Below, piece after piece: positions 6,599 through 38,112 of a stretch of 64,000 nucleotides of DNA. The translations under genes were made by a program, and so were the position numbers. The stretch spans positions 8,107 to 72,106 of the forward strand of contig CAVFGN010000003.1 in NCBI GenBank assembly GCA_963621965.1. The letters run 5' to 3'. The notes under the pieces are model-generated. The model did no database searches. It saw nothing but the letters and a program-made list of their open reading frames with translations, and was not told the DNA's origin. Within the stretch, counting starts at the first letter, position 1. Every line of letters begins with the position of its first letter. The stretch is from Alistipes finegoldii (GTDB lineage: Bacteria > Bacillota_I > Bacilli_A > Acholeplasmatales > Anaeroplasmataceae).

Positions 6599-7714
6599 TT
6601 ATTTTACACCATCTACTATATTAACTTTATATACGTCACATTTAATATTTGTTTTATTGTAATATCTTTCAATTACACTTTCTTTGAATGTTTCAAACTC
6701 ATTTTTATTTATAAGTGCAATCGCACATCCTCCAAATCCAGCACCAATCATACGTGCACCGATTGCGCCCGAATCTAAGGCAGCTTCAACGATTGAATCT
6801 AGATGAAAGCCTGAAACTTCATACAGATTTTTAAGAGATTCATGTGATTCATTTAAAAGGACACCAAGATTATCAATATCATATGATTTAAGAGAATCTA
6901 TAAACTTATAGACACGTCTATTTTCTAATATAACATGTTTTACTCTTTTTAATATTACAGGATCATTAATAAGCTCATTAATTTCACGTAAATCGCATTC
7001 TTTAAGTTCACACAAATTCTTAACAGAATAGCGTTTAGAAATCATTTCTAGCCCCTTAGAACACTCTAAAACGCGTTCATTATATTTTGATTCAACTAAT
7101 TTTCTAGATTTATTTGTCTTTAATATTACAAAGGTATAATTTTTAAGATTTAAATCATAATATTTGTATTTAAAACTTGCGCAATCAAGAAGAAGTGCTG
7201 TATTCTTTTTACCAAGAGTTATAATGGCTTCATCCATTATACCACTTGATAATTTACAATAAATATTTTCAACGTCTTTAGCAATTAAAACAATAGTTTC
7301 TTTATTTATATTTAAGCTAAATATTTTATTAATCGCAAAAATTGTAACAACTAAAATAGCAGCCGAACTTGAAAGGCCTGAACCTAGAGGAATTTCTGAT
7401 TTGTAGTATAGGTCAAGCCCTTTATCTACTTTATATCCTCTTTGTTTTAATATATAAAATACACCAACTACATAAGTAGCCCATAAATAAGAAGAAGAGT
7501 ATTCTAAATTATTTAAGTTCGTGTTAATTGATGTATCAAAATTATCTGAGCTAATTATTAATTGATTATCAGATCTTAAATTTACATACAAATTAATATA
7601 CAAATCTATACAACAAGGTAATACCACTCCACCATTATAGTCGATATGTTCGCCTATCAAATTGATTCTAGCAGGAGCCTTGAAGTTATACATAAAATTA
7701 GTCAAGACGTTCAC
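6599..7714 (-). CDS. galK: Galactokinase
   Basis: GHMP kinase motifs: PARINLIGEHIDYNGG (galactokinase signature) and PLGSGLSSSAA. Confidence 0.9.
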   Translation of the reverse strand: MNVLTNFMYNFKAPARINLIGEHIDYNGGVVLPCCIDLYINLYVNLRSDNQLIISSDNFDTSINTNLNNLEYSSSYLWATYVVGVFYILKQRGYKVDKGLDLYYKSEIPLGSGLSSSAAILVVTIFAINKIFSLNINKETIVLIAKDVENIYCKLSSGIMDEAIITLGKKNTALLLDCASFKYKYYDLNLKNYTFVILKTNKSRKLVESKYNERVLECSKGLEMISKRYSVKNLCELKECDLREINELINDPVILKRVKHVILENRRVYKFIDSLKSYDIDNLGVLLNESHESLKNLYEVSGFHLDSIVEAALDSGAIGARMIGAGFGGCAIALINKNEFETFKESVIERYYNKTNIKCDVYKVNIVDGVK

Positions 7715-9137
7715 CTGCGGCTAATTTTACACATTTATAAGCACCATCGTAATAGCCTTCATCTTTATTTTTGTTAATTATTTTAATCATATTAACAAGA
7801 AGTGACTTGTCATTAATAATTGAATCTAATGCTTCGTTCATACCTTTTTTAGTAGCTTCTTCTTCAAAACCATCACCATATTCACGAGAATGAATTTGAC
7901 CATAAACTTCGTGTCCACCTATATGTTTCATGAATAATTTAGGAATAGGATAGTAAGCAAGTTCACTTGGCTTTGTAATTAATAAATCCATATTAGGCAT
8001 TAATAAGTTAGTTACATAAACTGCTTTAAAAATATCTTCATCACAAACTGCATATATTCCTAATTTATCATTATTTGTAAGTTCATTATTTAAGTTTTTA
8101 ACGCTTGAATAATCATCAAATATAGTATTAATTTCTAATTCTTTAATATCTTTAATTAATTTTTTATAAACTGTATCATGGTCACCAAAGTTAATGAAAA
8201 GTGAGACTTGTTTATTTTTAACATAAGGTATCAAATGGATAATCATTTCTTTAAATTGTTTATACCCAGCGCCTGCTCCACCTACACTCATTAATATTCT
8301 AAGAGGTCGATTATTATAAATTCTTCGTAAACGACGCTCGTTATCTTGCTTAAGATTAACTAAAAGTTCATGGTCTACAAAACATCCTACATTATAAATA
8401 GTGTCATCAGGCATATGATTTAAAGATTTTTTATCAAATCCTTTTAGGGTTTTATAACCATTGTATGCATAGTTTGTTTGTACAGCATGAATAGCCCCCT
8501 CAGATAAGTGAAGAGCCATAGGCCAGTTATCAGGTATCGCGTTACAAACGTGTGTCATACCACCATGTATTGCGCCCTGAGATGGCCATACATGTGTTGC
8601 AATATAAGGAATATCTTTATCTATATTTTTAAATAAAGGGGCTAATAATTCGCTATTTTTTTGATCAATTGCGTTATAGCTAATCTTTTTAAAACCTTCA
8701 GAGTTTAAAGGTTCCCATACAAAATGGTTAAACAGATGAGATTTTTGTGAAATTCTACTTGCAATAGAATACATATCGTTTTGAGCTTTAATCATTTTAC
8801 TGCCAGTAGAATCAAAAGATGCTAAATCAAGCCAATAAGGAGTGTAACCTAAAGCTCGTGCACAAGAAGCCATTGCAATAGAAATTCGGTAGTGTCCAAA
8901 ACCCATACGGATATTACCAACAATTAATGGATTGTTTTCAAATTTTTGGTTCTCACGTCCAATCTTTATCATCATAGGTTTTATATCGCCAAGTGAAGAT
9001 ATTTCTTCGAAGTTGAAACAGTAATTGCAATTTGAGTCGTCCCCAAACTTTTTAATCCATTTATTTTTTGATTTATTAGCTTTTTTAATGGTTTTATTAC
9101 TCATTTTATTATTATAAATTTTAGTTGTTTTATCCAT
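7698..9137 (-). CDS. GT-B-fold glycosyltransferase-like protein (MGDG synthase/UgtP-like); specific function unknown
   Basis: GFGHYRIS near the N-terminus, LMSVGGAGAG, and LLITKPSELAYYPIPKLFM resemble GT28/MGDG-synthase donor-binding segments. Overlaps galK by 17 nt and is coupled to the upstream gene by a TAATG overlap. Confidence 0.35.
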   Translation of the reverse strand: MDKTTKIYNNKMSNKTIKKANKSKNKWIKKFGDDSNCNYCFNFEEISSLGDIKPMMIKIGRENQKFENNPLIVGNIRMGFGHYRISIAMASCARALGYTPYWLDLASFDSTGSKMIKAQNDMYSIASRISQKSHLFNHFVWEPLNSEGFKKISYNAIDQKNSELLAPLFKNIDKDIPYIATHVWPSQGAIHGGMTHVCNAIPDNWPMALHLSEGAIHAVQTNYAYNGYKTLKGFDKKSLNHMPDDTIYNVGCFVDHELLVNLKQDNERRLRRIYNNRPLRILMSVGGAGAGYKQFKEMIIHLIPYVKNKQVSLFINFGDHDTVYKKLIKDIKELEINTIFDDYSSVKNLNNELTNNDKLGIYAVCDEDIFKAVYVTNLLMPNMDLLITKPSELAYYPIPKLFMKHIGGHEVYGQIHSREYGDGFEEEATKKGMNEALDSIINDKSLLVNMIKIINKNKDEGYYDGAYKCVKLAAGERLD

Positions 9138-10741
9138 TATAATAAAATTCCTTTCTTAGAATCATATTTAATTACAAATTCTCTGTCTTGTAGTGTGTAA
9201 TATATTGTATAAATATTATTCTTAACTTCATAATATTTGTTAGTCGCATTATAGAATATATCTAACGCATTGTCCAAAACTTTATTTTTTTCCTTATCAT
9301 AAGTTTTAATATTGTCGCTAGTCATTAAAATCGAACCAAAGATGGCATTAATTGTAATTAAAGCAATTTTTTGACTAAATGATAGTTTATTATTTTCATC
9401 GCGTAAAATAAACGAATCAGGGTCATTTAAAAATAGTACGTCATCAAATATTGATCTAGTGATAGTATCAACTATTGTATGCTTTGTAGAGTTTCTTTCT
9501 CTATGAAAATGTCTCATGTACCAAAAATCATCAAAGATTAAAGAAGTATCACACCCTACACGAGAATAGTCAAATATATTAGCTGATGAGAATAAGTTGT
9601 TACCACATCCTAAAATCAATTTATTTTTTAATATCATACGTAAGAACTCGTAACTTTCTCTTTGCGTTTCAGCTTTAGTTTTACCTTTGTTATTTACAAT
9701 ACTGCCTGCATAAATAAAGTCTAATTTAAAATAATCAAATCCTAAATCAATATAATATTTTAAACATGAGCTTATGTATTCTTTAACTTCGCTTTTTTCT
9801 AAGTCAAGCGCAAAGAAACTAGACCAGTTTCCACCGCCTTTAACAAGAGAACCATCAGGATATTTTTTTATCCAATCATTGTGATTTTTAAATAATTTTG
9901 AATTGGTTTCACAAACAAAAGGTGCTAACCAAATTCCTGCTAACATACCTTTTTGATGAATTTTTTCAACGATTGAACTTAATCCATGCTTAAATTTGTT
10001 AGAATCAATATCTAGCCAGTCACCGACAAACGTTTCATATCCGTCGTCAATTTGAAATAAATCAAATCTATTATCAAGCGCTTCTAGATCATTTAAAATG
10101 ATATCTTCATTTATGTTTTGATAATAATTATACCAAGAAGAATATCCTAGTATCTTTTTATTTTTAGAAGATTTAAAATCTTCCTTAAAGGAAGATAGAC
10201 CTAATTCGTAAGTATCAAAGTACTTGAAGTTAAATAGAATAAAACTTTCGTCTTTTTTTAAAACTTTACCTTTTATATCAGAGATTAAATTTAGGGTTTT
10301 TGTTTTTTTATTAATTTCAAAAATTAGATAAGCATTTTTATAATTAAGATTGTAGAAGAAGTCATTCCTACTTCCTTTAATATAGAAAAGATCATAACTA
10401 TGAAGTTTATTTTTTTTATAATTATAAAATTTTGCATCCCCGTAATCACGCATACCGAATTTTTCAGTGATGAATTTAGGCATTTTTAAGATATTTTTTT
10501 CAACAAAATTAATATTAGTTAAATGCGTATCTGTCCAAGATTGATATCCATTTAAAAAATATAAATCTTTTGAATTTATAATATTTTCCTTTAATATAGT
10601 TGCACTAATAAGTGTAATATTAGTTTTTGAGATAATTGAATATTTAAAGTTATTAGTAGCGCAATCAATAATAATCTCTAAATCTTCGTTTGAAGATTCT
10701 GTTTTATATATTTTGTTTTCTTTTATGTATTCAAGTAACAT
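9137..10741 (-). CDS. Alpha-galactosidase (GH36-like, short form)
   Basis: FQIDDGYETFVGDWL, GIWLAPF, YFKLDFIY, LNDPDSF. I prefer the ATG at 10741 (MLLEYIKEN) to the ORF-track start at 10768. It sits 1 nt after the symporter stop and has AAAAGGA upstream. Confidence 0.7.
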   Translation of the reverse strand: MLLEYIKENKIYKTESSNEDLEIIIDCATNNFKYSIISKTNITLISATILKENIINSKDLYFLNGYQSWTDTHLTNINFVEKNILKMPKFITEKFGMRDYGDAKFYNYKKNKLHSYDLFYIKGSRNDFFYNLNYKNAYLIFEINKKTKTLNLISDIKGKVLKKDESFILFNFKYFDTYELGLSSFKEDFKSSKNKKILGYSSWYNYYQNINEDIILNDLEALDNRFDLFQIDDGYETFVGDWLDIDSNKFKHGLSSIVEKIHQKGMLAGIWLAPFVCETNSKLFKNHNDWIKKYPDGSLVKGGGNWSSFFALDLEKSEVKEYISSCLKYYIDLGFDYFKLDFIYAGSIVNNKGKTKAETQRESYEFLRMILKNKLILGCGNNLFSSANIFDYSRVGCDTSLIFDDFWYMRHFHRERNSTKHTIVDTITRSIFDDVLFLNDPDSFILRDENNKLSFSQKIALITINAIFGSILMTSDNIKTYDKEKNKVLDNALDIFYNATNKYYEVKNNIYTIYYTLQDREFVIKYDSKKGILL

Positions 10742-10742
10742 A

Positions 10743-12197
10743 TTAATCCTTTTCTTTTTGAACAGCACTTAAATAGTCGTTATCGCTATCTTTACTTATA
10801 ATAGTCATGATTTTCTTTTCTTTATAGAACATAAGAATGATTGCGCCTAGGCAACAAAAAGCGCATGCAACGAAAGCTACAATTGTTAAACCTAGTTTAC
10901 CAGCTGTTAGGTCATTAGCTTTTAAATCTACATTTGAAGCTCCGATAATAGCTAAACTTGTAAACATTAACATTGCCACAGATTGACCAAGTTTCATTGC
11001 GAAGGTTCTTGCTGCAAAGAACATTCCTTGTCTATTTTCACTAGTTTGAATAGAATCGGCTTCAGCTACATCAGCTACAATTGATTGAGGAATAATTCCA
11101 AGTAAAGCCATAGGTAAAGAGGCTACAACAACAATTACAATACCATAAACAAGTCCTGGTATTTGAGGAATTAAATAAATACAAGCACAAATAAGGTAAC
11201 ATAATGCAAGTCCAAAGAATCCGGCAATGGTAAGTTTTTTCTTACCAAACTTTTTAACTAACTTATCTACAAAAGGATAGAAACAAGCAGAAAGAACTGT
11301 CATTGCGCCCATGAAAACCATAACAAGAGATTCAGATAAACCCATTGAAACTTTTACAAAGAAAGGTAGTCCTGTTTGAAATAGAGTTAATCCAATCCAA
11401 TACATTATATCAGAACAAACAAATACTCTGAAGTCTTTATTCTTGAAAGTTGATTTAAGCGATTTAAATGCATTTGTATTGCTTGGCTTAGCTTCAACGA
11501 AATCTGTTTCTTTAATTAAGAAAGTAGGAAGTAACATACATATAAGTGCAATAATAGCTAAAACAACGAAGCAAATTCGATATGAATTATAGTATCCAAC
11601 TTGATCTTTAAAAAATCCAGCAAATACAAATGGTGTATAAGCTAGTAATGTACCAGCAAAATAAGTAAGTGAAATATATGTAGAAATATTCATTCTATCT
11701 TGTTGAGTTTTACCAAATTCAGAAATTAAAGCATTATAAGGTGTACAGTAGATAGTCATGAAGGTATAGAATAACACAAGAGCTATACTTACCCAAATGA
11801 TGTTAAGTGCATAACCATTGTCAGTTGAAAAGTTAGCACAAAAAACAAGTACTGTAGTTAATGCAAAAGGGATGGCTGCAAATCTCATAAATGGCATACG
11901 ACGTCCTTTTTTATTTTTTGAGTTGTCACTTAAATTAGCTACAAGTGGATCACTTACGGCATCCCAAATTCTACACAAAGCTGTAATTAAACCTAAGACA
12001 GTTAGAATACCACCGATGATTAGGCCTGATGGTAATAAATTTTTTACGCCCTCATTTTGAGTTTCTTCAGTAATTAAATAAAACGAAACTAGCCAAGCAT
12101 TAATGATGCCACCCAAAATAGACCAGCCAAGTTGACCAATTGCAAAGATCCACATTTGCTTTTTTGTTAGACGTTTTGAAACTATATTCTCCTCCAT
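10743..12197 (-). CDS. Glycoside-pentoside-hexuronide:cation symporter (MelB-like)
   Basis: 12-TM-like profile with a GPH-type N-terminus (KQMWIFAIGQLGWSILGG, DAVSDPLVANLSDN). Start moved to the ATG at 12197 (MEENIV), which has AGGAGAG 6 nt upstream. Confidence 0.75.
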   Translation of the reverse strand: MEENIVSKRLTKKQMWIFAIGQLGWSILGGIINAWLVSFYLITEETQNEGVKNLLPSGLIIGGILTVLGLITALCRIWDAVSDPLVANLSDNSKNKKGRRMPFMRFAAIPFALTTVLVFCANFSTDNGYALNIIWVSIALVLFYTFMTIYCTPYNALISEFGKTQQDRMNISTYISLTYFAGTLLAYTPFVFAGFFKDQVGYYNSYRICFVVLAIIALICMLLPTFLIKETDFVEAKPSNTNAFKSLKSTFKNKDFRVFVCSDIMYWIGLTLFQTGLPFFVKVSMGLSESLVMVFMGAMTVLSACFYPFVDKLVKKFGKKKLTIAGFFGLALCYLICACIYLIPQIPGLVYGIVIVVVASLPMALLGIIPQSIVADVAEADSIQTSENRQGMFFAARTFAMKLGQSVAMLMFTSLAIIGASNVDLKANDLTAGKLGLTIVAFVACAFCCLGAIILMFYKEKKIMTIISKDSDNDYLSAVQKEKD

Positions 12198-12366
12198 ATT
12201 ATACTCTCCTTTAAATAAAATATAGTTAGTTAGCTTATATAAGTTTAAACGCAAAAAAATAAAATTTGTATCCTTATATAATATATAAGTAAACTTGAAA
12301 ATATTAAATTTTAATCTTACTCCTTAAAGTATTTTAAACAACTGAGAAATGCTAACTATTTTAATA

Positions 12367-12395
12367 ATTTTATCATATGGTGTAAGCGCTGTCAA
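12367..12395 (-). promoter_or_regulatory. Promoter of the galactoside operon, TTGACA-17 nt-TAAAAT, overlapped by a cre-type operator TGTAAGCGCTGTCA (12381-12394)
   Basis: On the minus strand: TTGACAgcgcttacaccatatgaTAAAAT. The 14-mer fits TGWNANCGNTNWCA. This leaves a 5' UTR of about 160 nt. Confidence 0.65.
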
Positions 12396-12539
12396 TTTAA
12401 TATAAAAAAGCAGTCGCAATTAAATGATTTTTCAATTATATATTTTTTAATTCAATTTTAAAAAAAGTTAATAAAAAGATCAGATATATCAAACAACTTT
12501 TTTGAAATAAACTTTACAACGAAAAAATTCGTTTTGTAT

Positions 12540-12556
12540 CTAGCTTTTAAAACTAG
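12540..12556. repeat. P1: CTAG-bounded palindrome CTAGCTTTTAAAACTAG (16/17 to family consensus)
   Basis: Flanked symmetrically by AAAAAATTC..(12522) and ..GAATTTTTTTT (to 12578), giving about 55 bp of dyad symmetry. TTGTAT and AATAAT abut the core exactly 17 nt apart. Confidence 0.8.
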
Positions 12557-12614
12557 AATAATCTTTTGAATTTTTTTTATATTAAATTATAAATATTTAT
12601 TAATTATTATAACG

Positions 12615-12667
12615 AATCGAGATGATGTTTTATACGTTAAGTAGAATCTCGATTTGTCTATTTTTTT
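12615..12667 (+). repeat. H1: hairpin with 9-bp stem AATCGAGAT/ATCTCGATT, 22-nt loop, then a T7 run
   Basis: Arms at 12615-12623 and 12646-12654 are perfect complements. T-run at 12661-12667. Terminator-like, but the loop is unusually large. Confidence 0.7.
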
Positions 12668-12726
12668 ACTACGTTTTGGCTTATTAATAATAAATAAGGA
12701 GAATCCTTAAAAAATTCGTTTTGTAT

Positions 12727-12743
12727 CTAGTTTTTAAAACTAC
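12727..12743. repeat. P2: CTAGTTTTTAAAACTAC (16/17)
   Basis: The 40 nt AAAAAATTCGTTTTGTATCTAG.TTTTAAAACTA..AATAA is nearly identical to P1. Confidence 0.8.
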
Positions 12744-12877
12744 GAATAAAATGTAAAATTATTTTTAAATAAGTAGACATAATTTGCTTTTCTATGATTT
12801 AATTTTTTATTAAAGAATTTTATTTATTCTGATTTTTACCGAGTCTAATTAACCCCAAAAATATTTTCGATTTATTA

Positions 12878-12894
12878 CTAGTTTTTAAAACTAA
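12878..12894. repeat. P3: CTAGTTTTTAAAACTAA (16/17)
   Basis: The left flank TTTTCGATTTATTA resembles the P1/P2 flank. Confidence 0.75.
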
Positions 12895-13051
12895 ATAATA
12901 CAATATAAAAGTTTTATAATATAATTATAGAAAATAAGTGATTTTTGAACGTACGACAACGTGTAATTTTTAATTTACTTTTACTTTACAAATTAAAAAA
13001 ATTAAAATAGTTTTATAAATTATAATATTTACATTTGATGTTTAAGTTTTA

Positions 13052-13080
13052 TTGAAAGAAATCCATTCATTTGTTATAAT
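13052..13080 (+). promoter_or_regulatory. Strong sigma-70 promoter TTGAAA-17 nt-TATAAT with extended -10 (TGtTATAAT)
   Basis: Spacer counted as 17 nt. Lies 25 nt upstream of the ATG at 13105. Confidence 0.75.
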
Positions 13081-13104
13081 TTAGATAATTATGTGAGGTG
13101 CAAA

Positions 13105-14193
13105 ATGTTCAATCTTGAGAATGTTAGAAACCTTGGCGTAAAAGAAGAAGAGGTAATGAAATTGTTGAATCTCTACCAGTACAAAGGAAAAGATATTCAT
13201 TACGCAAAGCTTCTTGAAAAAGACCAAGATAAGATAATCAAAAAGAATACAAATATTGATATTTTAGAATTAACTAAATTCTTTAAACTAGATATTACAG
13301 ATGCAAGAAAAAAGTATATTATTAAAAACGGCGGAAGTGGTAAAAATAAAGCCGAACAATTCATGATTAATACTAGAAATGTTATGTACAAATTTGTATC
13401 AAATTACATGAATTTTGAACTAGAAAGCCATGAATTTGTTCGTTTTGTAGAAGAATTATTTAGTAAAATTGAAACAGTTAAGCCTGCTGTTTACTACACG
13501 CAGGATTCATCAAATGTTCTATATACTGAAAAAAAGAAGGTATTTAGACGTAACGATTTAGATGCAATGCTTGATATTTTTACTACTAAAAAGAATTCGA
13601 ACGAATATGAAATCACAAATCTTATTGCCAATTTTTATATCGATTTTGTGAATCAGAATATATTCACAGCCCATAATGACATTATTGGTTTATTTATTTT
13701 GTATATGTTATTAATTGTTTCTGGGTTTACAGTTTTTAGATATGTTAGTTTCTTTGAGCTATTTAATACACATTATGGCGAATTTGAGGATGCCATGAAA
13801 ATGGCTAATGCTAACTATGAAGATGGATATTCTAACCCAATAAAGCTTAATAAATTCTTAATTAATATTGTTTTAGAAGCTTATAATAAGTTAGAGGATT
13901 TCTTACATGAATATTCATACGAGACAAGAATTTCTAAAGAAAATGAGATCATAGGCTTGATTTATCATTTACCTCAGGAATTCACAAAAGAAGATATTCG
14001 AAAGGCTAATCCGTTTGTTAGTGATTCAACCATTAATCGAGCATTAGCTAGTCTATCATCTGAAAATAAAATTAGATCTTTAGGAACTGGGCGCTCTGCT
14101 AAGTGGATAAGATTAATAGAAAAACCTACATTTGAAACTACACAAACTACTAGTATATTTGACTTTACAGGAGAAGAAGATGAGAGTGCTTAA
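13105..14193 (+). CDS. Orphan protein with Fic-fold-like architecture, a degenerate active-site motif, and a C-terminal winged-helix DNA-binding domain
   Basis: The only long ORF in 4.9 kb. Start set at the ATG at 13105, with GAGGTG 4 nt upstream (the ORF track starts at a GTG at 13093). Where Fic proteins carry HPFxxGNGR, this one has FTAHNDIIGLF. The C-terminus DSTINRALASLSSENKIRSLGTGRSAKWIRL looks like a wHTH. It has its own promoter and terminator. Confidence 0.55.
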   Translation: MFNLENVRNLGVKEEEVMKLLNLYQYKGKDIHYAKLLEKDQDKIIKKNTNIDILELTKFFKLDITDARKKYIIKNGGSGKNKAEQFMINTRNVMYKFVSNYMNFELESHEFVRFVEELFSKIETVKPAVYYTQDSSNVLYTEKKKVFRRNDLDAMLDIFTTKKNSNEYEITNLIANFYIDFVNQNIFTAHNDIIGLFILYMLLIVSGFTVFRYVSFFELFNTHYGEFEDAMKMANANYEDGYSNPIKLNKFLINIVLEAYNKLEDFLHEYSYETRISKENEIIGLIYHLPQEFTKEDIRKANPFVSDSTINRALASLSSENKIRSLGTGRSAKWIRLIEKPTFETTQTTSIFDFTGEEDESA

Positions 14194-14213
14194 TAGCACT
14201 CTATTATTTTTTT
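14183..14213 (+). terminator. Intrinsic terminator of the Fic-like gene
   Basis: Perfect 8-bp stem AGAGTGCT/AGCACTCT with the stop codon in the TAAT loop, followed by a T-rich run. Confidence 0.8.
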
Positions 14214-14223
14214 CAAAATATAA

Positions 14224-14240
14224 CTAGTTTTAAAAACTAC
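14224..14240. repeat. P4: CTAGTTTTAAAAACTAC (15/17)
   Basis: Flanks TTTTTTTCAAAATATAA / TATACGTATGAATAAA fit the family flanks. Confidence 0.7.
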
Positions 14241-14297
14241 TATACGTATGAATAAATAACGACTTTTCATTTTAAAAACATGATTATATAGTAATTT

Positions 14298-14350
14298 TAA
14301 TCTCAAAATACTTAAATTTAAATTAAAAAAAGTTTACATTTTTGAGATTA
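14298..14350. repeat. Long inverted repeat: 11-bp stem TAATCTCAAAA/TTTTGAGATTA with a 31-nt loop
   Basis: Arms at 14298-14308 and 14340-14350 are complementary. The arm sequence (AATCTC) resembles the H-family arms. Confidence 0.6.
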
Positions 14351-14414
14351 GATATAAATTAAAATTTATTAATTATAACTATAAGCTGATCAATTTAAAC
14401 TCATTAGTTTAAGC

Positions 14415-14455
14415 ATTCGAGATCTGATGTATGGTGAATAATACAGTCTCCAATT
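14415..14455 (+). repeat. H2: degenerate H-family copy (ATTCGAGATCTGATG ... AGTCTCCAATT)
   Basis: The 5' box matches H1/H3/H4 (TCGAGAT..GATG). The 3' arm is decayed and the stem no longer pairs fully. Confidence 0.45.
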
Positions 14456-14471
14456 AATTTTCAAAAATTAT

Positions 14472-14488
14472 CTAGTTTTAGCAACTAG
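14472..14488. repeat. P5: CTAGTTTTAGCAACTAG (14/17)
   Basis: Flanks AATTTTCAAAAATTAT / ATTAAAAATGAAATTTTTT. The right flank is shared almost exactly with P8. Confidence 0.7.
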
Positions 14489-14495
14489 ATTAAAA

Positions 14496-14582
14496 ATGAA
14501 ATTTTTTATATTGTTGTTTGACAGAGAAGAAGAGGCAATTCATCAAATCAGATTTTACTCTCCATTTGGTGATTTAAAGTGA
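14496..14582 (+). CDS. Possible 28-codon mini-ORF (MKFFILLFDREEEAIHQIRFYSPFGDLK) starting in the conserved P flank
   Basis: ATGAAATTTTTT is conserved after several P copies, but no Shine-Dalgarno is present and the other copies stop after 1-17 codons. It may be a relic, not a gene. Confidence 0.12.
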   Translation: MKFFILLFDREEEAIHQIRFYSPFGDLK

Positions 14583-14586
14583 TATA

Positions 14587-14630
14587 AATCGAGAAGATGA
14601 AATGTTCAGCATTTATTATTTGAATTGTTA
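14587..14630 (+). repeat. H3: degenerate H-family copy (AATCGAGAAGATG...)
   Basis: The 5' box is conserved. No convincing 3' arm. Confidence 0.35.
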
Positions 14631-14786
14631 ATAAATCTTTGAAACCGAAAATAAACACGCTCATAGAATGTTTTGTGAATATGTTTATTCTCTTATATTG
14701 GTCAAATCCACCCTGTTTTAGATACTCATATACAATTATAGAGGCTGATTAAGACTCTAATTTATTATAGAAAAGAACTTCGAACA

Positions 14787-14814
14787 ACTACCGATAATAT
14801 ATATTATGTTAACC
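14787..14814 (+). other. dif: dif, the chromosome dimer resolution site (XerC/XerD target): ACTACCGATAA-TATATA-TTATGTTAACC
   Basis: 11-6-11 layout. By hand alignment, 23/28 identical to the B. subtilis dif as I recall it (ACTTCCTAGAATATATATTATGTAAACT), including the whole central TATATA and TTATGT. The right arm is 9/11 to the E. coli XerD arm TTATGTTAAAT. It lies at the point where gene orientation converges. xerD and ftsK are in the window. Confidence 0.75.
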
Positions 14815-14824
14815 AATAAATAAA

Positions 14825-14845
14825 GCCTTAGTTAAGGCGTTTTTT
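14825..14845 (+). terminator. Terminator-like hairpin 10 nt after dif
   Basis: GCCTT-AGTT-AAGGC followed by GTTTTTT. Short stem. No annotated gene upstream. Confidence 0.4.
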
Positions 14846-14918
14846 AAATCGTTGTGGATTTGTATGTTTCTACATGTTCCGTTAATTTATTCAAAACATA
14901 TATATTGCTTATTTCGCT

Positions 14919-14971
14919 AATCGAGATCGAAGAGAGTCCAGAACTGTAAAACTCGATTTCTCAAATTTTTT
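14919..14971 (+). repeat. H4: hairpin with 7-bp stem AATCGAG/CTCGATT, 26-nt loop, then a T6 run
   Basis: Arms at 14919-14925 and 14952-14958. The stem sequence matches H1 but the loop is unrelated. The downstream segment (T-run, TTTTGGC, ATAWAAA, CGAAT) aligns by eye with the segment after H1. Confidence 0.65.
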
Positions 14972-15020
14972 GGCATTTTCATATAAAAAGCGCCATTCTC
15001 ATCACGAATACAATTTTTAT

Positions 15021-15037
15021 TTAGTTTTTATAACTAG
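15021..15037. repeat. P6: TTAGTTTTTATAACTAG (15/17)
   Basis: Right flank ATGATATATGAAAAT fits the family. Confidence 0.7.
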
Positions 15038-15452
15038 ATGATATATGAAAATCCCATTAATTTAGCTGGAATATTTAGAAAAAATAATACACCAATTTGA
15101 TATCAATTTCACCTTTTCTGATTATTATTATAAAACTAAAACTTACAAAAATAATGTAAGTAACTTTTAAAATTATTTTTTTTGTGAAAACCAGTTTGTT
15201 TTACATTTCTATGTTTTATAAGCATCGAATAATATAAATACTTATAATAATAGCTTTCGAATTATTAAAAAAGTCTTCTTATACTTCTGAGAAAGGTTAT
15301 TGAAATAGAAAGAAAATTATGAGTATTTTGTGTAAACTTTTTTAGCAAAAAAACTATAACTGTTTTTGACGATTTTTGATACGAATTATAAAGCTCTTAT
15401 GATTATCAAATTAGATGATCAAAGTTTCTTTCAAAAACATCAAATTAAATAT

Positions 15453-15469
15453 CAAGTTTTTAAAACATG
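15453..15469. repeat. P7a: CAAGTTTTTAAAACATG (14/17)
   Basis: Degenerate copy, separated from P7b by a 28-nt hairpin. Confidence 0.5.
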
Positions 15470-15473
15470 CTAA

Positions 15474-15501
15474 AACCATCTTAATGTAATATTAAGTGGT
15501 T
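15474..15501. repeat. Hairpin AACCA(T)CTTAAT-GTAAT-ATTAAGTGGTT between P7a and P7b
   Basis: 11 bp plus one bulged T, read directly from the sequence. Confidence 0.55.
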
Positions 15502-15512
15502 ATTAAAACTAC
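15496..15512. repeat. P7b: GTGGTTATTAAAACTAC (13/17)
   Basis: The right flank ATACAATTTGAATTTTTTT is the reverse complement of the P1 left flank (AAAAAATTCGTTTTGTAT) with few changes. Confidence 0.55.
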
Positions 15513-16699
15513 ATACAATTTGAATTTTTTTCAAGTTCTTCTTCCTGTACTCAGTTGGTTTATATGTGCATAAACTCTTAAAATTAGTGTCGCTTTCTTC
15601 GAATTGCTTATATGATAAAACGTCTTCTTTTGTATTCTAGATTTACAAAATATTAAAATAAATAAGTGAAATTATATTTATTCGATACGAAAAAAATCCT
15701 CAAATTGAATGGCCAAATTTGAATTCTAAAATAACAATTTTTGAAGAAAATTTTTAAGATAATTTATAATTTCTGGTTTTCGTATTGATAACTTTTATAA
15801 TTGATTTTATACCTTTTACATTCAAGTAGTTTAGATTTGTATTTCTATTTTTGGTTAAATTTGTCCAATGCTAAAATTAGAAATTCTATTAAGATCAACT
15901 CATGATGATGTACAAGAATTTTATCAAATCCAGTCCTAATTTTTTTAATTTTCTTTGATTTTAAGTGATTAATTATATCTCATTTGACAAACTTTCGTAA
16001 CTAATTTAGATTCGAAGTCATGTTAAAAAACAAACATAAATTGATACAAAAAATCGAATTTGGTTAATTATCACAGTAAGACTTAAATTCATATGATTAA
16101 ATATTTGCGAGGATGTTAAAGGAAGCTGTTGGTTATCGTATGATATGCAATTTGAACTCATCTGAGAATTTAATTGAAAATTTATTTTCGTAGCACGTAA
16201 ATATTCACCAGCCGCATTTCGAAACATTACCTAACTTACACATAGTTTAAACTAAAAATTATTAATTTGATCTTCATGTTATTCAATTATCAAATACGGT
16301 TTATTTATTGAATGGAATCAAAAAAAGAATTGTGAACAATTTGCATAATTAATAACGTTTTTGGAGCTAGTTTGAAGCATTTCATTTCGTAAATAAAATC
16401 AAATTTTCTAAAGCATTTAACAGCGGCACACAAAATCTTTCTACGAAAATTAAAAATATAATATTCCAACAAAAGTGAATGTTAAACATTCATTTAAAAT
16501 TTATGTTTAAAAAATCATATTTTTTTGCAATACCAGATTTGAATAAATTTAATCCTTCTTAAGTTGGCCTCTTATACTGTTGTAATTCACTTCGTAATTG
16601 TTAAAAATCGTCAAAAAAGTATTATATTTAATTTTTAAATTTTCTTAAATTGTTTGTAAACTTTTATTATTTTTTATTAAGAGAAAATTTTGATTATAT

Positions 16700-16716
16700 A
16701 TAGTTCTTAAAACTAG
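16700..16716. repeat. P8: ATAGTTCTTAAAACTAG (15/17)
   Basis: The right flank ATATTAAATGAAATTTTTTA is nearly identical to that of P5. Confidence 0.7.
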
Positions 16717-17106
16717 ATATTAAATGAAATTTTTTAATTGCTTTCAGTAAGCTCAATAAAAAATTATTAATTTTCGATAAAATCATGATTCGCAATTTTT
16801 TATAATATAAAAGTAATTTGTTCTCTTCTTCTTTTGTTTTTTAAAAATTCATGAATATTGAAAGACATCCTGATTACGGTGTATATGTAATATGAGCTTA
16901 AAAATTTTATATTTTCATAATAGTTCAAATAAATACCAAAACTAGTATTCAAGACTATATAGAAAACTAAAAATTTTTTATACACTATTTTTGAGTTAAA
17001 ATATTGCTAAAAAATACCCATTTAATTTCACTACTATCATCAATTATTTTTCAGATAAATCATATGTTTATTATAATTGCAACTAGTATATTCAATGTTG
17101 CAGCAA

Positions 17107-17123
17107 CTAGTTTTTGATACTAG
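17107..17123. repeat. P9: CTAGTTTTTGATACTAG (15/17)
   Basis: Preceded by a partial copy GCAACTAGTATA (17079-17090). The right flank TATACATTTGAAAAAAATTT merges into the deoB terminator. Confidence 0.65.
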
Positions 17124-17133
17124 TATACATTTG

Positions 17134-17163
17134 AAAAAAATTTGACCCGTATCGCTACGAGTC
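17134..17163 (-). terminator. Intrinsic terminator after deoB
   Basis: Minus-strand RNA GACUCGUA-GCGA-UACGGGUC, then AAAUUUUUUU. Confidence 0.75.
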
Positions 17164-17173
17164 AAGCTTATAA

Positions 17174-18370
17174 TTATTCAATATCTTTCAAGAACGAATG
17201 TCCCCATTCACTTTCTTTAACACCAAAATTTTCAGCGACTGTATTGCCAAAATCTGAGAAAGATTGACGGATACCAAGATCAGTAGAACCTATGTTTTTG
17301 TGCCATACAATTAGAGGTACATATTCTCTTGTATGGTCAGTTCCAAACCATGTAGGATCATTACCATGATCAGCTGTAATCATAACTAAATCATCATCAT
17401 TTAATTGATTAATTAATTGTCCTAGTTGTGTGTCAAATTCTTCCATGGCTTGTCCATAACCTTGAGGGTTTCTTCTATGTCCATATAATGCATCAAAGTC
17501 AACTAAATTTAAATAACAAAGTCCTGTAAAATCTCTATTTTTTGCAATATCAATCATATGGTTCATACCATCTGCATTTGATACTTGTCTAATAGATTCT
17601 GTGATACCACAACCATTATATATATCTGAAATCTTACCTAAACCTATAACTGTATAATTAGCTTCTTTAAGCTTGTCTAGAATTGTAGGCGCAAACGGTG
17701 AAACCGCATAATCGTGTCTATTTGGAGTTCTTGTAAAGTTAGTTTTGTCAGTACCTACAAATGGTCTTGCGATAATTCTACCAACTTTCCATTCTGGCTT
17801 CATACATAATTCACGCGCAATATGACAACATCTATATAGTTCTTCAAGACCAAATGTTTCTTCATGTGCCGCGATTTGTAATACCGAATCACTTGAAGTA
17901 TAAACAATCATAGAGTTATCTCTCATTTGTTCTTCACCTAAGTCTACTAGGATTTGAGTACCTGAGGCGGCACAGTTACCAATTACTTTATGTCCTGTTT
18001 GCTTTTCAAGTTCATCAATTAATTCCTTAGGGAAACCTGTATCAGTGAATGTTTTAAATGGTTCTTTTACATTTAAGCCCATAATTTCAAGATGACCTGT
18101 TAACGTATCTTTACCACGAGAAATTTCTTGCATCTTACCATGAGCGCCTTGCTTACATGTTTTGCTTAATCCTTCAATATCAGTTATCATTCCATAACCC
18201 ATAGATTCAAGAACAGGTAATTTTAAGCCATTGCAAGACGCTGCTATATGAGCTATTGTATTAGCTCCTTCGTCTGTGTGGCCTGCATTAAAGAATTCAT
18301 TTGAATCCTTACAAGTACCACAGCCTACGCTATCAATTACGATAGCAAAAATTCTTTTAAATTTTTTCAT
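17174..18370 (-). CDS. deoB: Phosphopentomutase
   Basis: Alkaline-phosphatase-superfamily DeoB features: IVIDSVGCG near the N-terminus, ITADHGNDPT, and GHRRNPQGY. Confidence 0.9.
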   Translation of the reverse strand: MKKFKRIFAIVIDSVGCGTCKDSNEFFNAGHTDEGANTIAHIAASCNGLKLPVLESMGYGMITDIEGLSKTCKQGAHGKMQEISRGKDTLTGHLEIMGLNVKEPFKTFTDTGFPKELIDELEKQTGHKVIGNCAASGTQILVDLGEEQMRDNSMIVYTSSDSVLQIAAHEETFGLEELYRCCHIARELCMKPEWKVGRIIARPFVGTDKTNFTRTPNRHDYAVSPFAPTILDKLKEANYTVIGLGKISDIYNGCGITESIRQVSNADGMNHMIDIAKNRDFTGLCYLNLVDFDALYGHRRNPQGYGQAMEEFDTQLGQLINQLNDDDLVMITADHGNDPTWFGTDHTREYVPLIVWHKNIGSTDLGIRQSFSDFGNTVAENFGVKESEWGHSFLKDIE

Positions 18371-35781: not shown

Positions 35782-38107
35782 ATAAATCGTTAATTTGACT
35801 AATATTCATTAAAATATCACGTTTTGTACCTTTACGTTCAGATACAACACCTAAGGATTGTAATTTTGTAATGATATTTTGAGCTCTATTAAATCCGATA
35901 TTGAAAGCTTTTTGAATGACATTTACAGAACACATTTGGTTTTCACAACACCATATACTGACATTATAAAGCATAGATGTTGATTCTTCTTCGATGTTTG
36001 CACCTGGACCGACCCCATTTTGTTCGCTAATGTCTTTTAAGTCATCATGATTGAATAAATAATGTGGTTCAGCTTGATCATGAATGAAGTTTACAACTGC
36101 ATCTATTTCTTCATCGCGAATAAATGCACCTTGAACACGACTAGCCATATCAACTTCTTTAATTAACATATCACCGCGACCAAGTAAAGATTCAGCTCCT
36201 GATTCATCTAATATTGTAATTGAATCGACTGAACTATTAACTCTAAATGCAATACGTGTTTGAATATTTGCTTTAATTGTACCTTTAATTACATCTACTG
36301 TAGGACGTTGTGTAGCACATAATAAGTGAATACCTGCAGCACGAGCTTTAGCTGTTAGCCTTTTAATTGAATCTTCGGCTTCTTGACCACATTGTAACAT
36401 CAAATCAGCCATTTCATCGATTACAATGACAATATATGGAATTCGTTGCATTGTAGGATCTTCTTTAGCTTTCTCATTATATGAAACAATTTCACGGGCT
36501 TTAACTGTTGTAAATAAATTATAACGACGTTCCATTTCATTAACAGCCCAGTCAAGAGCTTTACTTGACATTTTAGGATCACTAATTACTGGAGTAATTA
36601 AGTGAGGAATATCATTATAAACAGATAATTCAACAACTTTAGGGTCAATCATTAGAAATTTAACTTCGTCAGGTTTAGCCTTAAGTAAGATAGAAACAAT
36701 AATTGTGTTAATACTTACAGATTTACCACTACCAGTAGAACCAGCAATTAAACCATGTGGCCATTTAGCGATATTTGTAGTAATGACATTACCATCAATA
36801 TCTTTACCAAGTGCTACATTTAACACCTTGCCATCATTAATATATTCTTCACTTAAGATATCACCGAATGCTACCGCTTTTCTAACTCTATTAGGTACTT
36901 CAATACCTACTGTTTTCTTACCAGGAATAGGCGCTTGTATACGCAAACTTGTAACACCTAGGTTCATTTGTAATGTATCTTGAATAGATAAGATTTTCTT
37001 TACATTTGTACCTATTTCAAGACTTATTTCATAACGAGTAAATGTAGGACCTTCAACATAATGTTCAACCATACCATTAATATCAAATGATGCAAGGGTT
37101 TGATTAATGATTTCTTTTGATTCTTCAAGTCCTTCAATATCACTTTCATTCGCATTATCTGAACAAGAAATTAATGAAAGTGGAGGTAATTTATAATCTT
37201 GATATGGATTTAAGACAATTGGTAATACTAATTCCTGAGGCTCTTCATATGATATATCTTCTTCATTTTCTTCATCTAACTCTACATTTAATTCTTTATT
37301 ATTAAAATTGTAAAGATCGTTATTAGATTTATTTAAATCAACATTATTTGAAAAGCCATTTTTATTATCTATCTGTTCAAATTGTTCTTCGTGATTATAT
37401 ATTTCATTTGTGTGATTTTCGTTAGAGACATTAATTAAATTGTTATAATCGTTTGAATTTTGTTCTGTTTGATTATAATTATCAGTCTTTTGTTTTCTAA
37501 CAATTATAGTACTGTTTTTATGTACTTCGCCATTTCTTGAAACCATAGGACGTAGAGGAATTTCAATTTTAGTTTCTTCATGTACTTCGGGAGTGAAATC
37601 ATCAAAACTAAAGCCAGTATTTATATCTTCATTGATACCTTCGTTTTCTTCAGGAACATCAGAAACATTGACATCTTCGTTAATCGAATCTTTCTTTGTA
37701 TCTTCAATAAATGAGAAAGATGGATTTTTAGGTTCTGGTTTCTTTTCTGTTAAATCTTTCTTTTGAATTTTAATGTCTTCCCCATAAATTTCTCTAATAC
37801 TTTCTTCGTCAACCTCATCAAATCCAGGATATTTAGTACCAAATCTTTTTATATTATATTCATCAGTAATCTTTTTTTCATTATCATTTCTAAACGAATC
37901 ATATTTGACGTCATAATCGCCTAATTCTTCACTATTGTCATCATAAGTTGGTTTATCAGCTAAGCCAGTACCCATGATAGGGGATGCAAAGACAGAAGGC
38001 TTGAACTTATCTTTCGATCTCTTTAAGCCCTCGTAAGGACTAACTATTTGAGGAATAACAAATATTTCTTCTTCTTTTTCAAATTGTTTTTTCTTCTTTT
38101 TAAACAT
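35765..38107 (-). CDS. ftsK: FtsK/SpoIIIE-family DNA translocase without N-terminal membrane segments (SftA-like)
   Basis: Walker A GSTGSGKS, IVIDEMADLM, RAAGIHL..ATQRP. C-terminal gamma/wHTH (QKAFNIGFNRAQNIITKLQSLGVV). The N-terminal 330 aa are hydrophilic and N/E/D-rich, with no TM helix. Confidence 0.85.
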   Translation of the reverse strand: MFKKKKKQFEKEEEIFVIPQIVSPYEGLKRSKDKFKPSVFASPIMGTGLADKPTYDDNSEELGDYDVKYDSFRNDNEKKITDEYNIKRFGTKYPGFDEVDEESIREIYGEDIKIQKKDLTEKKPEPKNPSFSFIEDTKKDSINEDVNVSDVPEENEGINEDINTGFSFDDFTPEVHEETKIEIPLRPMVSRNGEVHKNSTIIVRKQKTDNYNQTEQNSNDYNNLINVSNENHTNEIYNHEEQFEQIDNKNGFSNNVDLNKSNNDLYNFNNKELNVELDEENEEDISYEEPQELVLPIVLNPYQDYKLPPLSLISCSDNANESDIEGLEESKEIINQTLASFDINGMVEHYVEGPTFTRYEISLEIGTNVKKILSIQDTLQMNLGVTSLRIQAPIPGKKTVGIEVPNRVRKAVAFGDILSEEYINDGKVLNVALGKDIDGNVITTNIAKWPHGLIAGSTGSGKSVSINTIIVSILLKAKPDEVKFLMIDPKVVELSVYNDIPHLITPVISDPKMSSKALDWAVNEMERRYNLFTTVKAREIVSYNEKAKEDPTMQRIPYIVIVIDEMADLMLQCGQEAEDSIKRLTAKARAAGIHLLCATQRPTVDVIKGTIKANIQTRIAFRVNSSVDSITILDESGAESLLGRGDMLIKEVDMASRVQGAFIRDEEIDAVVNFIHDQAEPHYLFNHDDLKDISEQNGVGPGANIEEESTSMLYNVSIWCCENQMCSVNVIQKAFNIGFNRAQNIITKLQSLGVVSERKGTKRDILMNISQINDLFERNE

Positions 38108-38112
38108 AATTA

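What the first reader, a model, noticed from the sequence alone, without database searches (positions are those of the whole stretch)
12615..15060. Hairpin family with conserved stems and unrelated loops, part of a larger ~150-nt repeat unit
H1 (12615-12654) and H4 (14919-14958) share the stem AATCGAG(AT)/(AT)CTCGATT but carry different loops of 22 and 26 nt. Both are followed by a T-run. H2 (14415) and H3 (14587) keep the 5' box TCGAGA..GATG but have lost pairing. After H1 and H4 the sequence aligns again (T-run, TTTTGGC, ATAWAAA, CGAAT) and leads into a P palindrome (P2 and P6). The unit is therefore hairpin + spacer + palindrome, about 150 nt. H2-P5 is a shortened version. A conserved stem with a variable loop recalls cassette-type recombination sites, guide-bearing RNAs, and type I antitoxin or terminator modules, but it matches nothing I can name. 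With 22-26-nt loops they are poor canonical terminators.
Basis: seen in the sequence. Interest (0 to 1): 0.6.

Follow-up and report, generated by a model that had tools for sequence, protein, structure and literature searches.

The report
Conserved inverted-repeat sites flanking dif
The "hairpins" are copies of a 40-base inverted-repeat DNA element that, together with a one-way palindrome element, surrounds the chromosome dimer-resolution site (dif) at the replication terminus in a whole order of wall-less gut bacteria, so they look like undescribed protein-binding sites of the terminus rather than RNA hairpins, guide RNAs or gene-cassette sites.

Summary
H1 and H4 are the only two AATCGAG-N26-CTCGATT inverted repeats in the 2.09-Mb genome. 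H3 is a decayed copy. H2 is not supported.

The 5-kb AT-rich tract is the replication terminus. A canonical dif site lies at 14787-14814, where gene orientation and GC skew switch.

H is a fixed 40-bp element found beside dif across the order (CM hits in 41 of 101 genomes, five families). One copy sits exactly 199 nt from dif in 20 loci. Its arms are conserved in sequence and show no compensatory change, so selection on an RNA or ssDNA structure is not supported. Its interiors share a consensus and are not unrelated.

The P palindrome is the core of a polar element of about 40 bp. Its orientation reverses at dif in 128 of 134 copies, in 11 of 11 genera. H and P lie within 150 nt of each other far more often than chance predicts.

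My best reading is that both are double-stranded protein-binding sites of a dif-centred terminus complex, either a polar barrier or a Xer/FtsK accessory. No protein has been shown to bind them.

Cassette-site, guide-RNA, toxin-antitoxin and terminator readings are not supported.

Earlier notes of this scan describe similar polar arrays at dif in other genomes.

The parts
12519..12560 (-). P1: polar P element (P box 12540-12556)
   Evidence: PWM 30.5 bits on the - strand. CTAGCTTTTAAAACTAG.
12615..12654 (-). H1: 40-bp H element with a 9-bp inverted repeat. The best copy in this genome.
   Evidence: PWM 42.5 bits on -. CM E 5e-8. Folds at -16 kcal/mol, z -2.8.
12706..12747 (-). P2: polar P element (P box 12727-12743), 89 nt from H1
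   Evidence: PWM 29.8 bits on - against 23.4 on +.
12857..12898 (-). P3: polar P element (P box 12878-12894), about 175 nt upstream of the promoter of the Fic-like gene
   Evidence: PWM 35.6 bits. Promoter TTGAAA-17-TATAAT at 13052-13080.
13093..14193 (+). Fic-fold protein with a lost Fic motif and an invariant C-terminal winged helix (P0001). Candidate DNA-binding partner; binding is not shown.
14203..14244 (-). P4: polar P element (P box 14224-14240), just after the gene's terminator
   Evidence: PWM 32.9 bits on -. Terminator at 14183-14202.
14415..14454 (.).
   Evidence: Arms 7/8 and 6/8 in register by eye, but the family PWM is negative on both strands.
14451..14509 (.). P5: innermost left P element (P box 14472-14488), with flank motifs on both sides
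   Evidence: PWM 30.0 on - and 31.5 on +.
14587..14626 (-). H3: decayed H copy at the conserved -199 position
   Evidence: PWM 16.2 bits on -. An H copy at -197 to -200, always on -, in 20 related loci.
14787..14814 (+). dif: XerC arm, 6-bp centre, XerD arm (ACTACCGATAA TATATA TTATGTTAACC)
   Evidence: 23/28 identical to the B. subtilis dif string printed in PMC3025954. The 20-nt core occurs once or twice in 63 of 81 family genomes. It lies at the GC-skew and gene-orientation switch.
14825..14838 (.). Short GC hairpin with T runs directly right of dif, within a semi-conserved block
14851..14859 (+). Degenerate DnaA-box-like 9-mer (TGTGGATTT) at the conserved +67 position
   Evidence: TGTGGATAA with at most 1 mismatch lies at +65 to +67 in about 27 of 55 loci.
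14919..14958 (-). H4: H element 133 nt right of dif. Equivalent copies lie at +133 to +155 in ten loci of at least four genera.
   Evidence: PWM 27.4 on - and 20.9 on +. CM E 1e-4. Positions.
15017..15058 (+). P6: innermost right P element (P box 15021-15037), 102 nt from H4
   Evidence: PWM 24.3 bits on +. P at +217 to +290 in many loci.
15492..15533 (+). P7: polar P element, diverged core
   Evidence: PWM 26.9 bits on +.
16696..16737 (+). P8: polar P element (P box 16700-16716)
   Evidence: PWM 32.0 on + against 19.9 on -.
16938..16979 (+). Weak P element
   Evidence: PWM 20.8 bits on +.
17103..17144 (+). P9: polar P element (P box 17107-17123), abutting the terminator of the deoB-like gene
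   Evidence: PWM 25.9 bits on +. Terminator at 17142-17165 on -.

Best explanation
H1-H4 are copies, two good and one or two decayed, of a 40-bp inverted-repeat DNA element (H). H belongs to the non-coding architecture around the chromosomal dif site at the replication terminus of Acholeplasmatales-type bacteria.

In this family H is interleaved with a second, polar element of about 40 bp. That element has the CTAGTTTTTAAAACTAG palindrome followed by ATA-NN-TTTTGAAAT, and its copies reverse orientation at dif.

I read both as sequence-specific protein-binding sites on double-stranded DNA that build a dif-centred nucleoprotein structure. Each H would have two 8-bp half-sites 32 bp apart, about three helical turns, bound by a dimer or a pair of dimers. 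The P arrays would form a one-way barrier or signpost on each side of dif. That could be a fork trap that confines termination to the roughly 550 bp holding dif, or an accessory structure acting with XerCD/FtsK.

Shown: the identity of dif, the location and polarity of the elements, sequence conservation without covariation, and H-P coupling.
Inferred: that proteins bind, which proteins (the candidate for H is the Fic-fold winged-helix protein encoded beside dif), and what the complex does.
For: 1. Terminus and dif. The 28-mer is 23/28 identical to B. subtilis dif. The dif core occurs once or twice per genome in 63 of 81 family genomes. GC skew and gene orientation converge here. FtsK with a gamma domain and two Xer recombinases are present.

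2. H is locus-specific and old. There are 2-3 copies in this genome, all here. The CM finds it in 41 of 101 genomes of the order, in five families. 38 of 57 family dif loci have a copy within 1 kb of dif, and 20 have one at exactly -197 to -200. In family f2, where the Fic-like gene lies 14-285 kb from dif, H stays with dif in 3 of 5 genomes. No H was found within about 5 kb of the gene.

3. No structural selection. Pairing in the arms is 72.8%, equal to the shuffle mean, and covariation is 0.133 against 0.135. The frequent G-to-A change in the left arm is uncompensated.

4. P polarity. 128 of 134 copies conform, in 11 of 11 genera. Distal copies 15-18 kb away also conform. 14 of the 17 genome-wide PWM hits lie in this 4.6 kb.

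5. H and P are coupled in space: 52% within 150 nt against 19% for random positions.

6. The neighbouring protein has a Fic fold without the Fic motif, and its invariant residues cluster in the winged helix.
Against: - No binding, transcription or replication data exist for these uncultured genomes.
- H orientation is only loosely polar: left of dif 28 on - and 4 on +; right of dif 34 on + and 14 on -.
- Some H copies lie just upstream of ordinary genes (24 nt before the truB start codon, about 110 nt before a udk-like promoter). That would also fit a regulatory role.
- The P box overlaps the -10 of an ordinary sigma-70 promoter in two genera, so its binder may be a plain transcription factor.
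- The one strong P copy outside the terminus in this genome (upstream of a PFOR gene, contig C6) has the opposite polarity relative to GC skew. That is awkward for a strict fork trap.
- The genome has canonical FtsK/XerCD, so no accessory system is needed for dimer resolution.
- The Fic-like protein is only a guess as the binder. In family f2 the gene and H are far apart.
Confidence: 0.55

Rival explanations
1. Ordinary transcription-factor operators. The P box, and perhaps H, are operators of one or two regulators that control neighbouring genes (the Fic-like gene, a udk-like kinase, deoB, truB). The clustering at dif is a by-product of where those genes lie.
For: - The P box overlaps the -10 and start site of a TTGACA-17-TAAACT promoter beside a DUF1836 gene in genera g12 and g13.
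- A P element lies in the leader between a TGnTATAAT promoter and the udk-like start codon.
- H lies 24 nt before the truB start codon.
- A strong P element lies upstream of the PFOR gene in this genome.
Against: - Five to seven copies per side lie in gene-free DNA (2.3 kb right of dif in the window).
- The asymmetric flank reverses at dif in 11 of 11 genera. Where gene direction and polarity can be separated (the PFOR copy), the flank does not follow gene direction.
- H sits at fixed offsets from dif (-199, +133 to +155) across genera.
- H stays with dif when neighbouring genes differ.
Confidence: 0.2
2. RNA-level elements. H is a transcribed hairpin (5'-UTR or sRNA stem, or a terminator) and P a weak terminator or leader hairpin, so each H-spacer-P unit is a small transcription unit.
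For: - H1 folds into a 12-bp stem (z -2.8) followed by a T run.
- P is a 7-bp A/U hairpin followed by a T-rich flank.
- H and P are spaced 50-150 nt apart.
- Some copies lie in leaders.
Against: - No covariation in either helix.
- H4, H2 and H3 fold no better than shuffled sequence.
- No Rfam match even at E 1.
- The terminator scan finds none at H or P.
- H occurs in both orientations at equivalent positions.
- The P polarity would terminate only transcripts leaving dif, antisense to every flanking gene.
Confidence: 0.12
3. Recombination or mobile-element sites: attC-like folded sites, IMEX attachment scars or MITE ends gathered at dif.
For: - Imperfect inverted repeats with a one-sided bulge-like insert resemble folded single-strand recombination sites.
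- The site is next to dif and a xerD-like gene.
Against: - There is only one dif-like site per genome in most genomes.
- No ORF cassettes lie between copies.
- No extra integrase is present.
- No copies lie elsewhere in the genome, as a mobile element would leave.
- The arms do not resemble the dif arms.
- Positions are conserved over an order.
Confidence: 0.05
4. Chance, or decay of one recent local duplication with no function.
For: Only two good copies exist in this genome, and their interiors differ.
Against: The same arms, the same 40-nt length and the same positions relative to dif recur in five families. Meanwhile the flanking DNA is too diverged for BLASTN to align.
Confidence: 0.02

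Closest known systems
RTP-Ter replication fork trap of Bacillus subtilis (and Tus-Ter of E. coli)
   Same: - Multi-copy, asymmetric sites of about 30-40 bp restricted to the terminus, in opposed orientation on the two sides.
- Each site combines a dyad-symmetric core with an auxiliary part.
- A winged-helix protein gene lies inside the cluster, with a site upstream of it.
   Different: - No RTP or Tus homologue was found.
- As far as I recall the Ter consensus, the sequences are unrelated.
- The array is far more compact (within about 4 kb on either side) and centred exactly on dif.
- One copy outside the terminus has the wrong polarity.
- Fork arrest is untested.
Accessory sequences of plasmid Xer sites (cer with ArgR/PepA, psi with ArcA/PepA)
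   Same: Protein-binding DNA at a fixed distance from a Xer core site. H lies at -199 and at +133 to +155 from dif.
   Different: - Those are plasmid sites, on one side only, and replace FtsK control.
- Here the site is chromosomal and FtsK-gamma is present.
- The elements lie on both sides of dif.
- No ArgR/ArcA-type boxes were demonstrated.
XDS, the XerD-binding sites that unload SMC at the B. subtilis terminus (Karaboja et al. 2021, from memory)
   Same: Extra protein-binding sites confined to the terminus region around dif.
   Different: XDS resemble dif half-sites. H and P do not resemble either dif arm.
matS/MatP of enterobacteria
   Same: A short palindrome bound by a dimer and confined to the terminus region (compare the P box core).
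   Different: - matS is not polar and is spread over about 800 kb.
- P has an oriented flank and lies within a few kb of dif.
- A MatP homologue was not searched for.
KOPS/SRS, the FtsK/SpoIIIE orienting sequences
   Same: Polarity that reverses at dif.
   Different: - KOPS are 8-mers skewed genome-wide.
- The H arm and the P flank are not skewed genome-wide. The KOPS-like word here is GAAGAAG.

Membership tests
Chromosomal dif (XerCD site) | 28-bp site: two 11-bp partly palindromic arms around a 6-bp centre, similar to known dif sites | tested here: met
   ACTACCGATAA-TATATA-TTATGTTAACC at 14787-14814. 23/28 identical to the B. subtilis dif string found in PMC3025954.
Chromosomal dif (XerCD site) | Single copy, at the skew and gene-orientation switch | tested here: met
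   One copy in this genome. 63 of 81 family genomes have a match, nearly all at a single site. The GC-skew sign changes between contig positions 14 and 25 kb, and genes converge there.
Chromosomal dif (XerCD site) | XerC/XerD and FtsK with a gamma domain are encoded | tested here: met
   Two Phage_integrase-family genes, one 3.6 kb from dif. One FtsK of 785 aa with a gamma domain.
Structured RNA family (Rfam type) | Match to a curated covariance model | tested here: not met
   No hit in 12200-17200, even at E 1.
Structured RNA family (Rfam type) | Base pairs kept by compensatory changes | tested here: not met
   64 copies, 16 pairs. All five measures equal the shuffle means.
Intrinsic terminator | GC-rich stem, loop of 3-8 nt, U run directly after the stem | tested here: not met
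   H loops are 22-26 nt. The scan finds terminators at 14183, 14825 and 17142 but none at H or P.
Integron attC / cassette array | Integron integrase next to an array of ORF cassettes, each ending in a site | tested here: not met
   Only two Xer-type recombinases in the genome. No ORFs lie between copies under code 11 or code 4.
Guide-bearing RNA / CRISPR-like | Variable segment matches foreign or genomic targets | tested here: not met
   The longest second match of the H1 and H4 loops in the genome is 13 nt. No phage match. The only plasmid match is to dif itself.
RTP-Ter / Tus-Ter fork trap | Polar sites in opposed orientation on the two sides of the terminus | tested here: met
   P element: 52 left copies in one orientation and 76 right copies in the other, with 4 exceptions, in 11 of 11 genera.
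RTP-Ter / Tus-Ter fork trap | RTP or Tus protein encoded | tested here: not met
   PF02334 and PF05472 give no match at E 0.1 in a 94%-complete genome. The control genomes do match.
RTP-Ter / Tus-Ter fork trap | Orientation-dependent fork arrest | not testable with these tools
   Needs 2D gels or marker-frequency analysis.
KOPS/SRS | Short word, frequent and strand-skewed over the whole replichore | tested here: not met
   AATCGAGA 13 against 11; ATTTCAAA 238 against 164. The top skewed word is GAAGAAG, 890 against 119.
REP/MITE-type dispersed repeats | Many copies dispersed in intergenic regions | tested here: not met
   H: 2-3 copies, all at dif. P: 14 of 17 hits lie in one 4.6-kb stretch.
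Xer accessory sequences (cer/psi type) | Accessory protein sites at a fixed distance from the core | tested here: inconclusive
   H sits at -197 to -200 in 20 loci and at +133 to +155 in 10. The binding proteins and any effect on recombination are unknown.

The most novel reading that the evidence does not exclude
The P arrays and H sites form a third, unrelated kind of bacterial replication-terminus system. It would be a compact polar barrier that makes forks meet within a few hundred bases of dif, or that hands dif to XerCD/FtsK. It would be built by a winged-helix protein on a dead Fic-enzyme scaffold, in bacteria that have neither Tus nor RTP.
Probability: 0.2. Interest if true: 0.85.

Novelty: new variant of a known kind. 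Interest (0 to 1): 0.62.

Why it matters
Replication fork traps are known from only two unrelated systems, Tus-Ter and RTP-Ter, each confined to a narrow group. How most bacteria end replication and organise the terminus is an open question.

This locus provides defined cis-elements to work with:
- a 40-bp inverted repeat at fixed offsets from dif, conserved across an order;
- a polar 40-bp element whose orientation flips at dif in every genus examined;
- a short list of candidate binding proteins.

That makes the question testable by gel shifts, DAP-seq and orientation-dependent fork-arrest assays in surrogate hosts or in culturable Acholeplasma/Anaeroplasma relatives.

If the elements turn out to be plain operators, the result still has value. 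It gives a well-mapped dif locus and a new regulatory motif for a poorly known group of gut bacteria.

Tried and rejected
- **Genetic code 4** (Mycoplasma-type): the long ORFs are the same as under code 11, and no new gene appears in the gaps.
- **Rfam**, at gathering scores and at E 1: nothing in the region. No tRNA or tmRNA.
only the P box aligns.
- **H as a sigma-70 promoter.** The 6 nt before H resemble -35 (TAGACA/TTGACA) and a GATAAT/TATAAT-like hexamer lies inside H. But the spacer would be 20 nt, and real promoters lie elsewhere. Not adopted.
- **The P flank TTGAAA as a -35:** no -10 follows it.
- **H interior as a DnaA box or ARG box:** only 14 of 64 copies come within 2 mismatches of TGTGGATAA. 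Dropped.
- **H arm or P flank as KOPS:** not skewed genome-wide.
- **First order-wide P search:** it used a wrong spacer (7 N instead of 8) and found almost nothing. Repeated correctly.
- **Two fold calls** on L090 and L084 used wrong coordinates and are meaningless (last two rows).
- **PDB sequence search for the DUF1836 protein:** nothing.
- **Literature search for the motif strings:** no relevant paper.

Full report
**1. What is in the window**

The finding lies in a 4.9-kb stretch (12255-17173) of 22% G+C. This stretch holds a single gene and is otherwise ORF-free under codes 11 and 4.
- To the left is a sugar-utilisation block on the minus strand (MFS transporter, melibiase-type hydrolase).
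- To the right are a deoB-like phosphopentomutase and a XerD-like recombinase, also on the minus strand.
- H1 and H4 are as described. Both are exactly 40 nt, with arms AATCGAG(AT)/(AT)CTCGATT.
- The pattern AATCGAG-N18-32-CTCGATT occurs nowhere else in the 2.09-Mb assembly, and the reversed control gives zero.
- The 8-mer alone is not significant.

**2. The region is the replication terminus, and dif lies in the middle**

BLASTN of the tract against 40 relatives found only the gene and one conserved piece of 30-60 nt. That piece is ACTACCGATAA-TATATA-TTATGTTAACC at 14787-14814.
- It is 23/28 identical to B. subtilis dif. I recalled that sequence from memory and then found it verbatim in PMC3025954.
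- Its 20-nt core matches at one site in almost every genome with a hit (63 of 81 family genomes).
- GC skew on the contig is positive up to about 15 kb and negative from about 25 kb.
- In relatives, genes converge on the site (udk-like, then Fic-like, then dif, facing deoB and xerD).
- The genome encodes FtsK with a gamma domain and two Xer-type recombinases. It has no RTP or Tus.
- The most strand-skewed 7-mer genome-wide is GAAGAAG, the kind of word expected for a KOPS-like signal.

Protein names attached to homologues (Anaeroplasmataceae, Izimaplasma) and the 0.7-Mb genomes in a sister family place the organism in the Acholeplasmatales in the broad sense.

**3. H is a conserved, dif-linked 40-bp element**

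- Exact-arm searches found H in 18 of 81 family genomes. Nearly all copies are exactly 40 nt and lie on the dif contig.
- I fetched 57 dif-centred loci and scanned them with a PWM. This gave 94 copies in 46 loci. 38 loci have a copy within 1 kb of dif.
- Positions recur: -197 to -200 in 20 loci of several genera, always in the same orientation; +133 to +155 in 10 loci; about +294 in one genus; -433 to -456 in the window's own genus.
- The window's H3 sits at -199 and H4 at +133, so both occupy recurrent positions. H2 scores below zero and is not supported.
- A covariance model finds H in 41 of 101 genomes of the order, in five families.
- In family f2 the Fic-like gene lies 14-285 kb from dif. 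There H stays beside dif in 3 of 5 genomes, and no H lies within about 5 kb of the gene.
- The 64-copy alignment gives the consensus ..ACnAATCGAGAAT..AAAATATGG.TAATT..CCATCTCGATT... The interiors are therefore related and asymmetric, not free loops.

**4. H is conserved as sequence, not as structure**

On the 64 copies, the outer helix and a possible inner helix pair in 72.8% of cells. This is exactly the mean of column shuffles, and the covariation score is 0.133 against 0.135.
- The commonest variant (left arm G to A) is not compensated.
- Only H1 folds better than shuffled sequence.
- Rfam has no match, and the loops match nothing elsewhere.

This argues for recognition of duplex DNA: two 8-bp half-sites 32 bp apart, about three helical turns.

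**5. The P palindrome is the core of a polar element that flips at dif**

- All nine P boxes of the 64-kb window lie in 12540-17123.
- Genome-wide, 14 of 17 PWM hits lie there.
- Flanks of 134 P boxes from the dif loci show a one-sided extension: AtCTAGTTTTtAAAACTAGaTa..tttTGAAATtTTTT.
- I assigned orientation from the flank alone, without using the side of dif. Left of dif, 52 copies point one way; right of dif, 76 point the other; 4 are exceptions. All 11 genera with copies conform, and 28 genomes have copies on both sides.
- Whole-genome pattern searches give the same picture. They also show distal copies 15-18 kb away, between matE and truB, that obey the rule.
- P is essentially confined to family f1 (32 of 36 genomes, against 0 of 35 in f2). 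P is therefore younger than H.
- In the window, P1-P4 score best on the minus strand, P6-P9 on the plus strand, and P5 is two-sided.

**6. H and P are coupled**

Across the loci, 52% of H copies have a P box within 150 nt, against 19% for random positions. The preferred spacing is 50-150 nt.

**7. The gene inside the cluster**

P0001 (366 aa) is found in 36 of 41 relatives and carries no annotation.
- It folds with pLDDT 85 as an SO_4266-type Fic protein (Foldseek E 3e-8 to 1e-4 against Fic structures; phmmer against 8uqu).
- The Fic motif is replaced (AHNDIIGLF).
- The invariant residues cluster in the C-terminal winged helix (SDSTINRAL...GTGRSAKW).
- In families f1, f4 and f5 its 3' end lies 250-1000 nt from dif.

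It is a reasonable candidate for a DNA-binding partner of an order-wide site such as H. This is inference only.

**8. Observations that cut the other way**

- The P box overlaps the -10 of a good sigma-70 promoter next to a DUF1836 gene in two genera.
- A P element lies in the leader of the udk-like gene.
- H lies 24 nt before the truB start codon.
- In this genome, one strong P copy upstream of a PFOR gene has the opposite polarity with respect to GC skew.

The binder of P may therefore also act as a regulator, and a strict fork-trap model has at least one awkward site.

**9. Verdict**

The hairpin family is real, and it is more interesting in context than in isolation. It is one of two cis-elements that build a conserved, gene-poor island around dif.

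I put about 0.55 on protein-binding duplex sites of a terminus/dif complex. Within that, about 0.2 overall is on a true polar fork barrier. The other readings are:
- ordinary operators, 0.2;
- RNA elements, 0.12;
- recombination or mobile scars, 0.05.

**10. Earlier notes of this scan**

Earlier AI notes of this scan describe polar site arrays converging on dif in other genomes. They include an Acholeplasmatales genome with a one-sided 41-bp motif (e1-3036111) and DnaA-type boxes beside dif (e1-3177148). I found these notes only after my own analysis.
- I re-tested the polarity here on my own loci.
- I partly re-tested the DnaA-type box: TGTGGATAA with at most one mismatch lies at +65 to +67 in about 27 of 55 loci.

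In those summaries I saw no mention of the H element, its order-wide spread, its fixed offsets or its lack of covariation.

Noticed in passing
window 14851-14859; related loci at +65 to +67 from dif: A DnaA-box-type 9-mer (TGTGGATAA, at most 1 mismatch), often followed by a second GTGGAWAA, sits at a fixed distance right of dif in about 27 of 55 family loci. The window's copy is degenerate (TGTGGATTT).
   Followed up: partly
window 14524-14534 and whole genome: GAAGAAG is the most strand-skewed 7-mer of the genome (890 against 119 on the leading strand), so it is a KOPS/SRS-like candidate. A GAAGAAGA run pointing at dif lies about 260 nt left of dif, here and in three genomes of the same genus.
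   Followed up: partly
L104:3150-3300, also L105, L106, L107 (genera g12, g13): A P box (CTAGTATTACAAACTAG) overlaps the -10 of a TTGACA-17-TAAACT promoter. That promoter drives a 174-aa unknown protein and a glycosyltransferase, divergent from a DUF1836 gene. DUF1836 is a candidate P-box binder.
   Followed up: partly
G000:C6:20062-20103 (locus L100:6062-6103): The best-scoring P element of the genome lies about 140 nt upstream of the promoter of a pyruvate:ferredoxin oxidoreductase gene. Its polarity is opposite to the terminus rule.
   Followed up: partly
L092:4915-5204, L093, L116 (genus g12): A P element plus an H element lie between a matE gene and the truB-ribF-rpsO-pnp operon, 15-18 kb from dif. 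H ends 24 nt before the truB start codon.
   Followed up: partly
window 6599-12254: A minus-strand sugar-utilisation block (DUF6937/6938 protein, melibiase-like hydrolase, MFS transporter) replaces the udk-like gene found left of the Fic-like gene in relatives. It runs against the local replication direction, so it is probably an insertion or inversion at the terminus.
   Followed up: no
G002:C41:9352-11170: One genome of the same genus has a second Fic-like gene with its own dif-like site on another contig. This could be a second replicon, an integrated element or contamination.
   Followed up: no
window 55872-55957 and 57219-57310: SAM (S-box) and THF riboswitches on the minus strand.
   Followed up: no
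window about 35800-38160 (G000:C3:43913-46270): The only ftsK gene of the genome (785 aa, with gamma domain) lies about 21 kb from dif.
   Followed up: no
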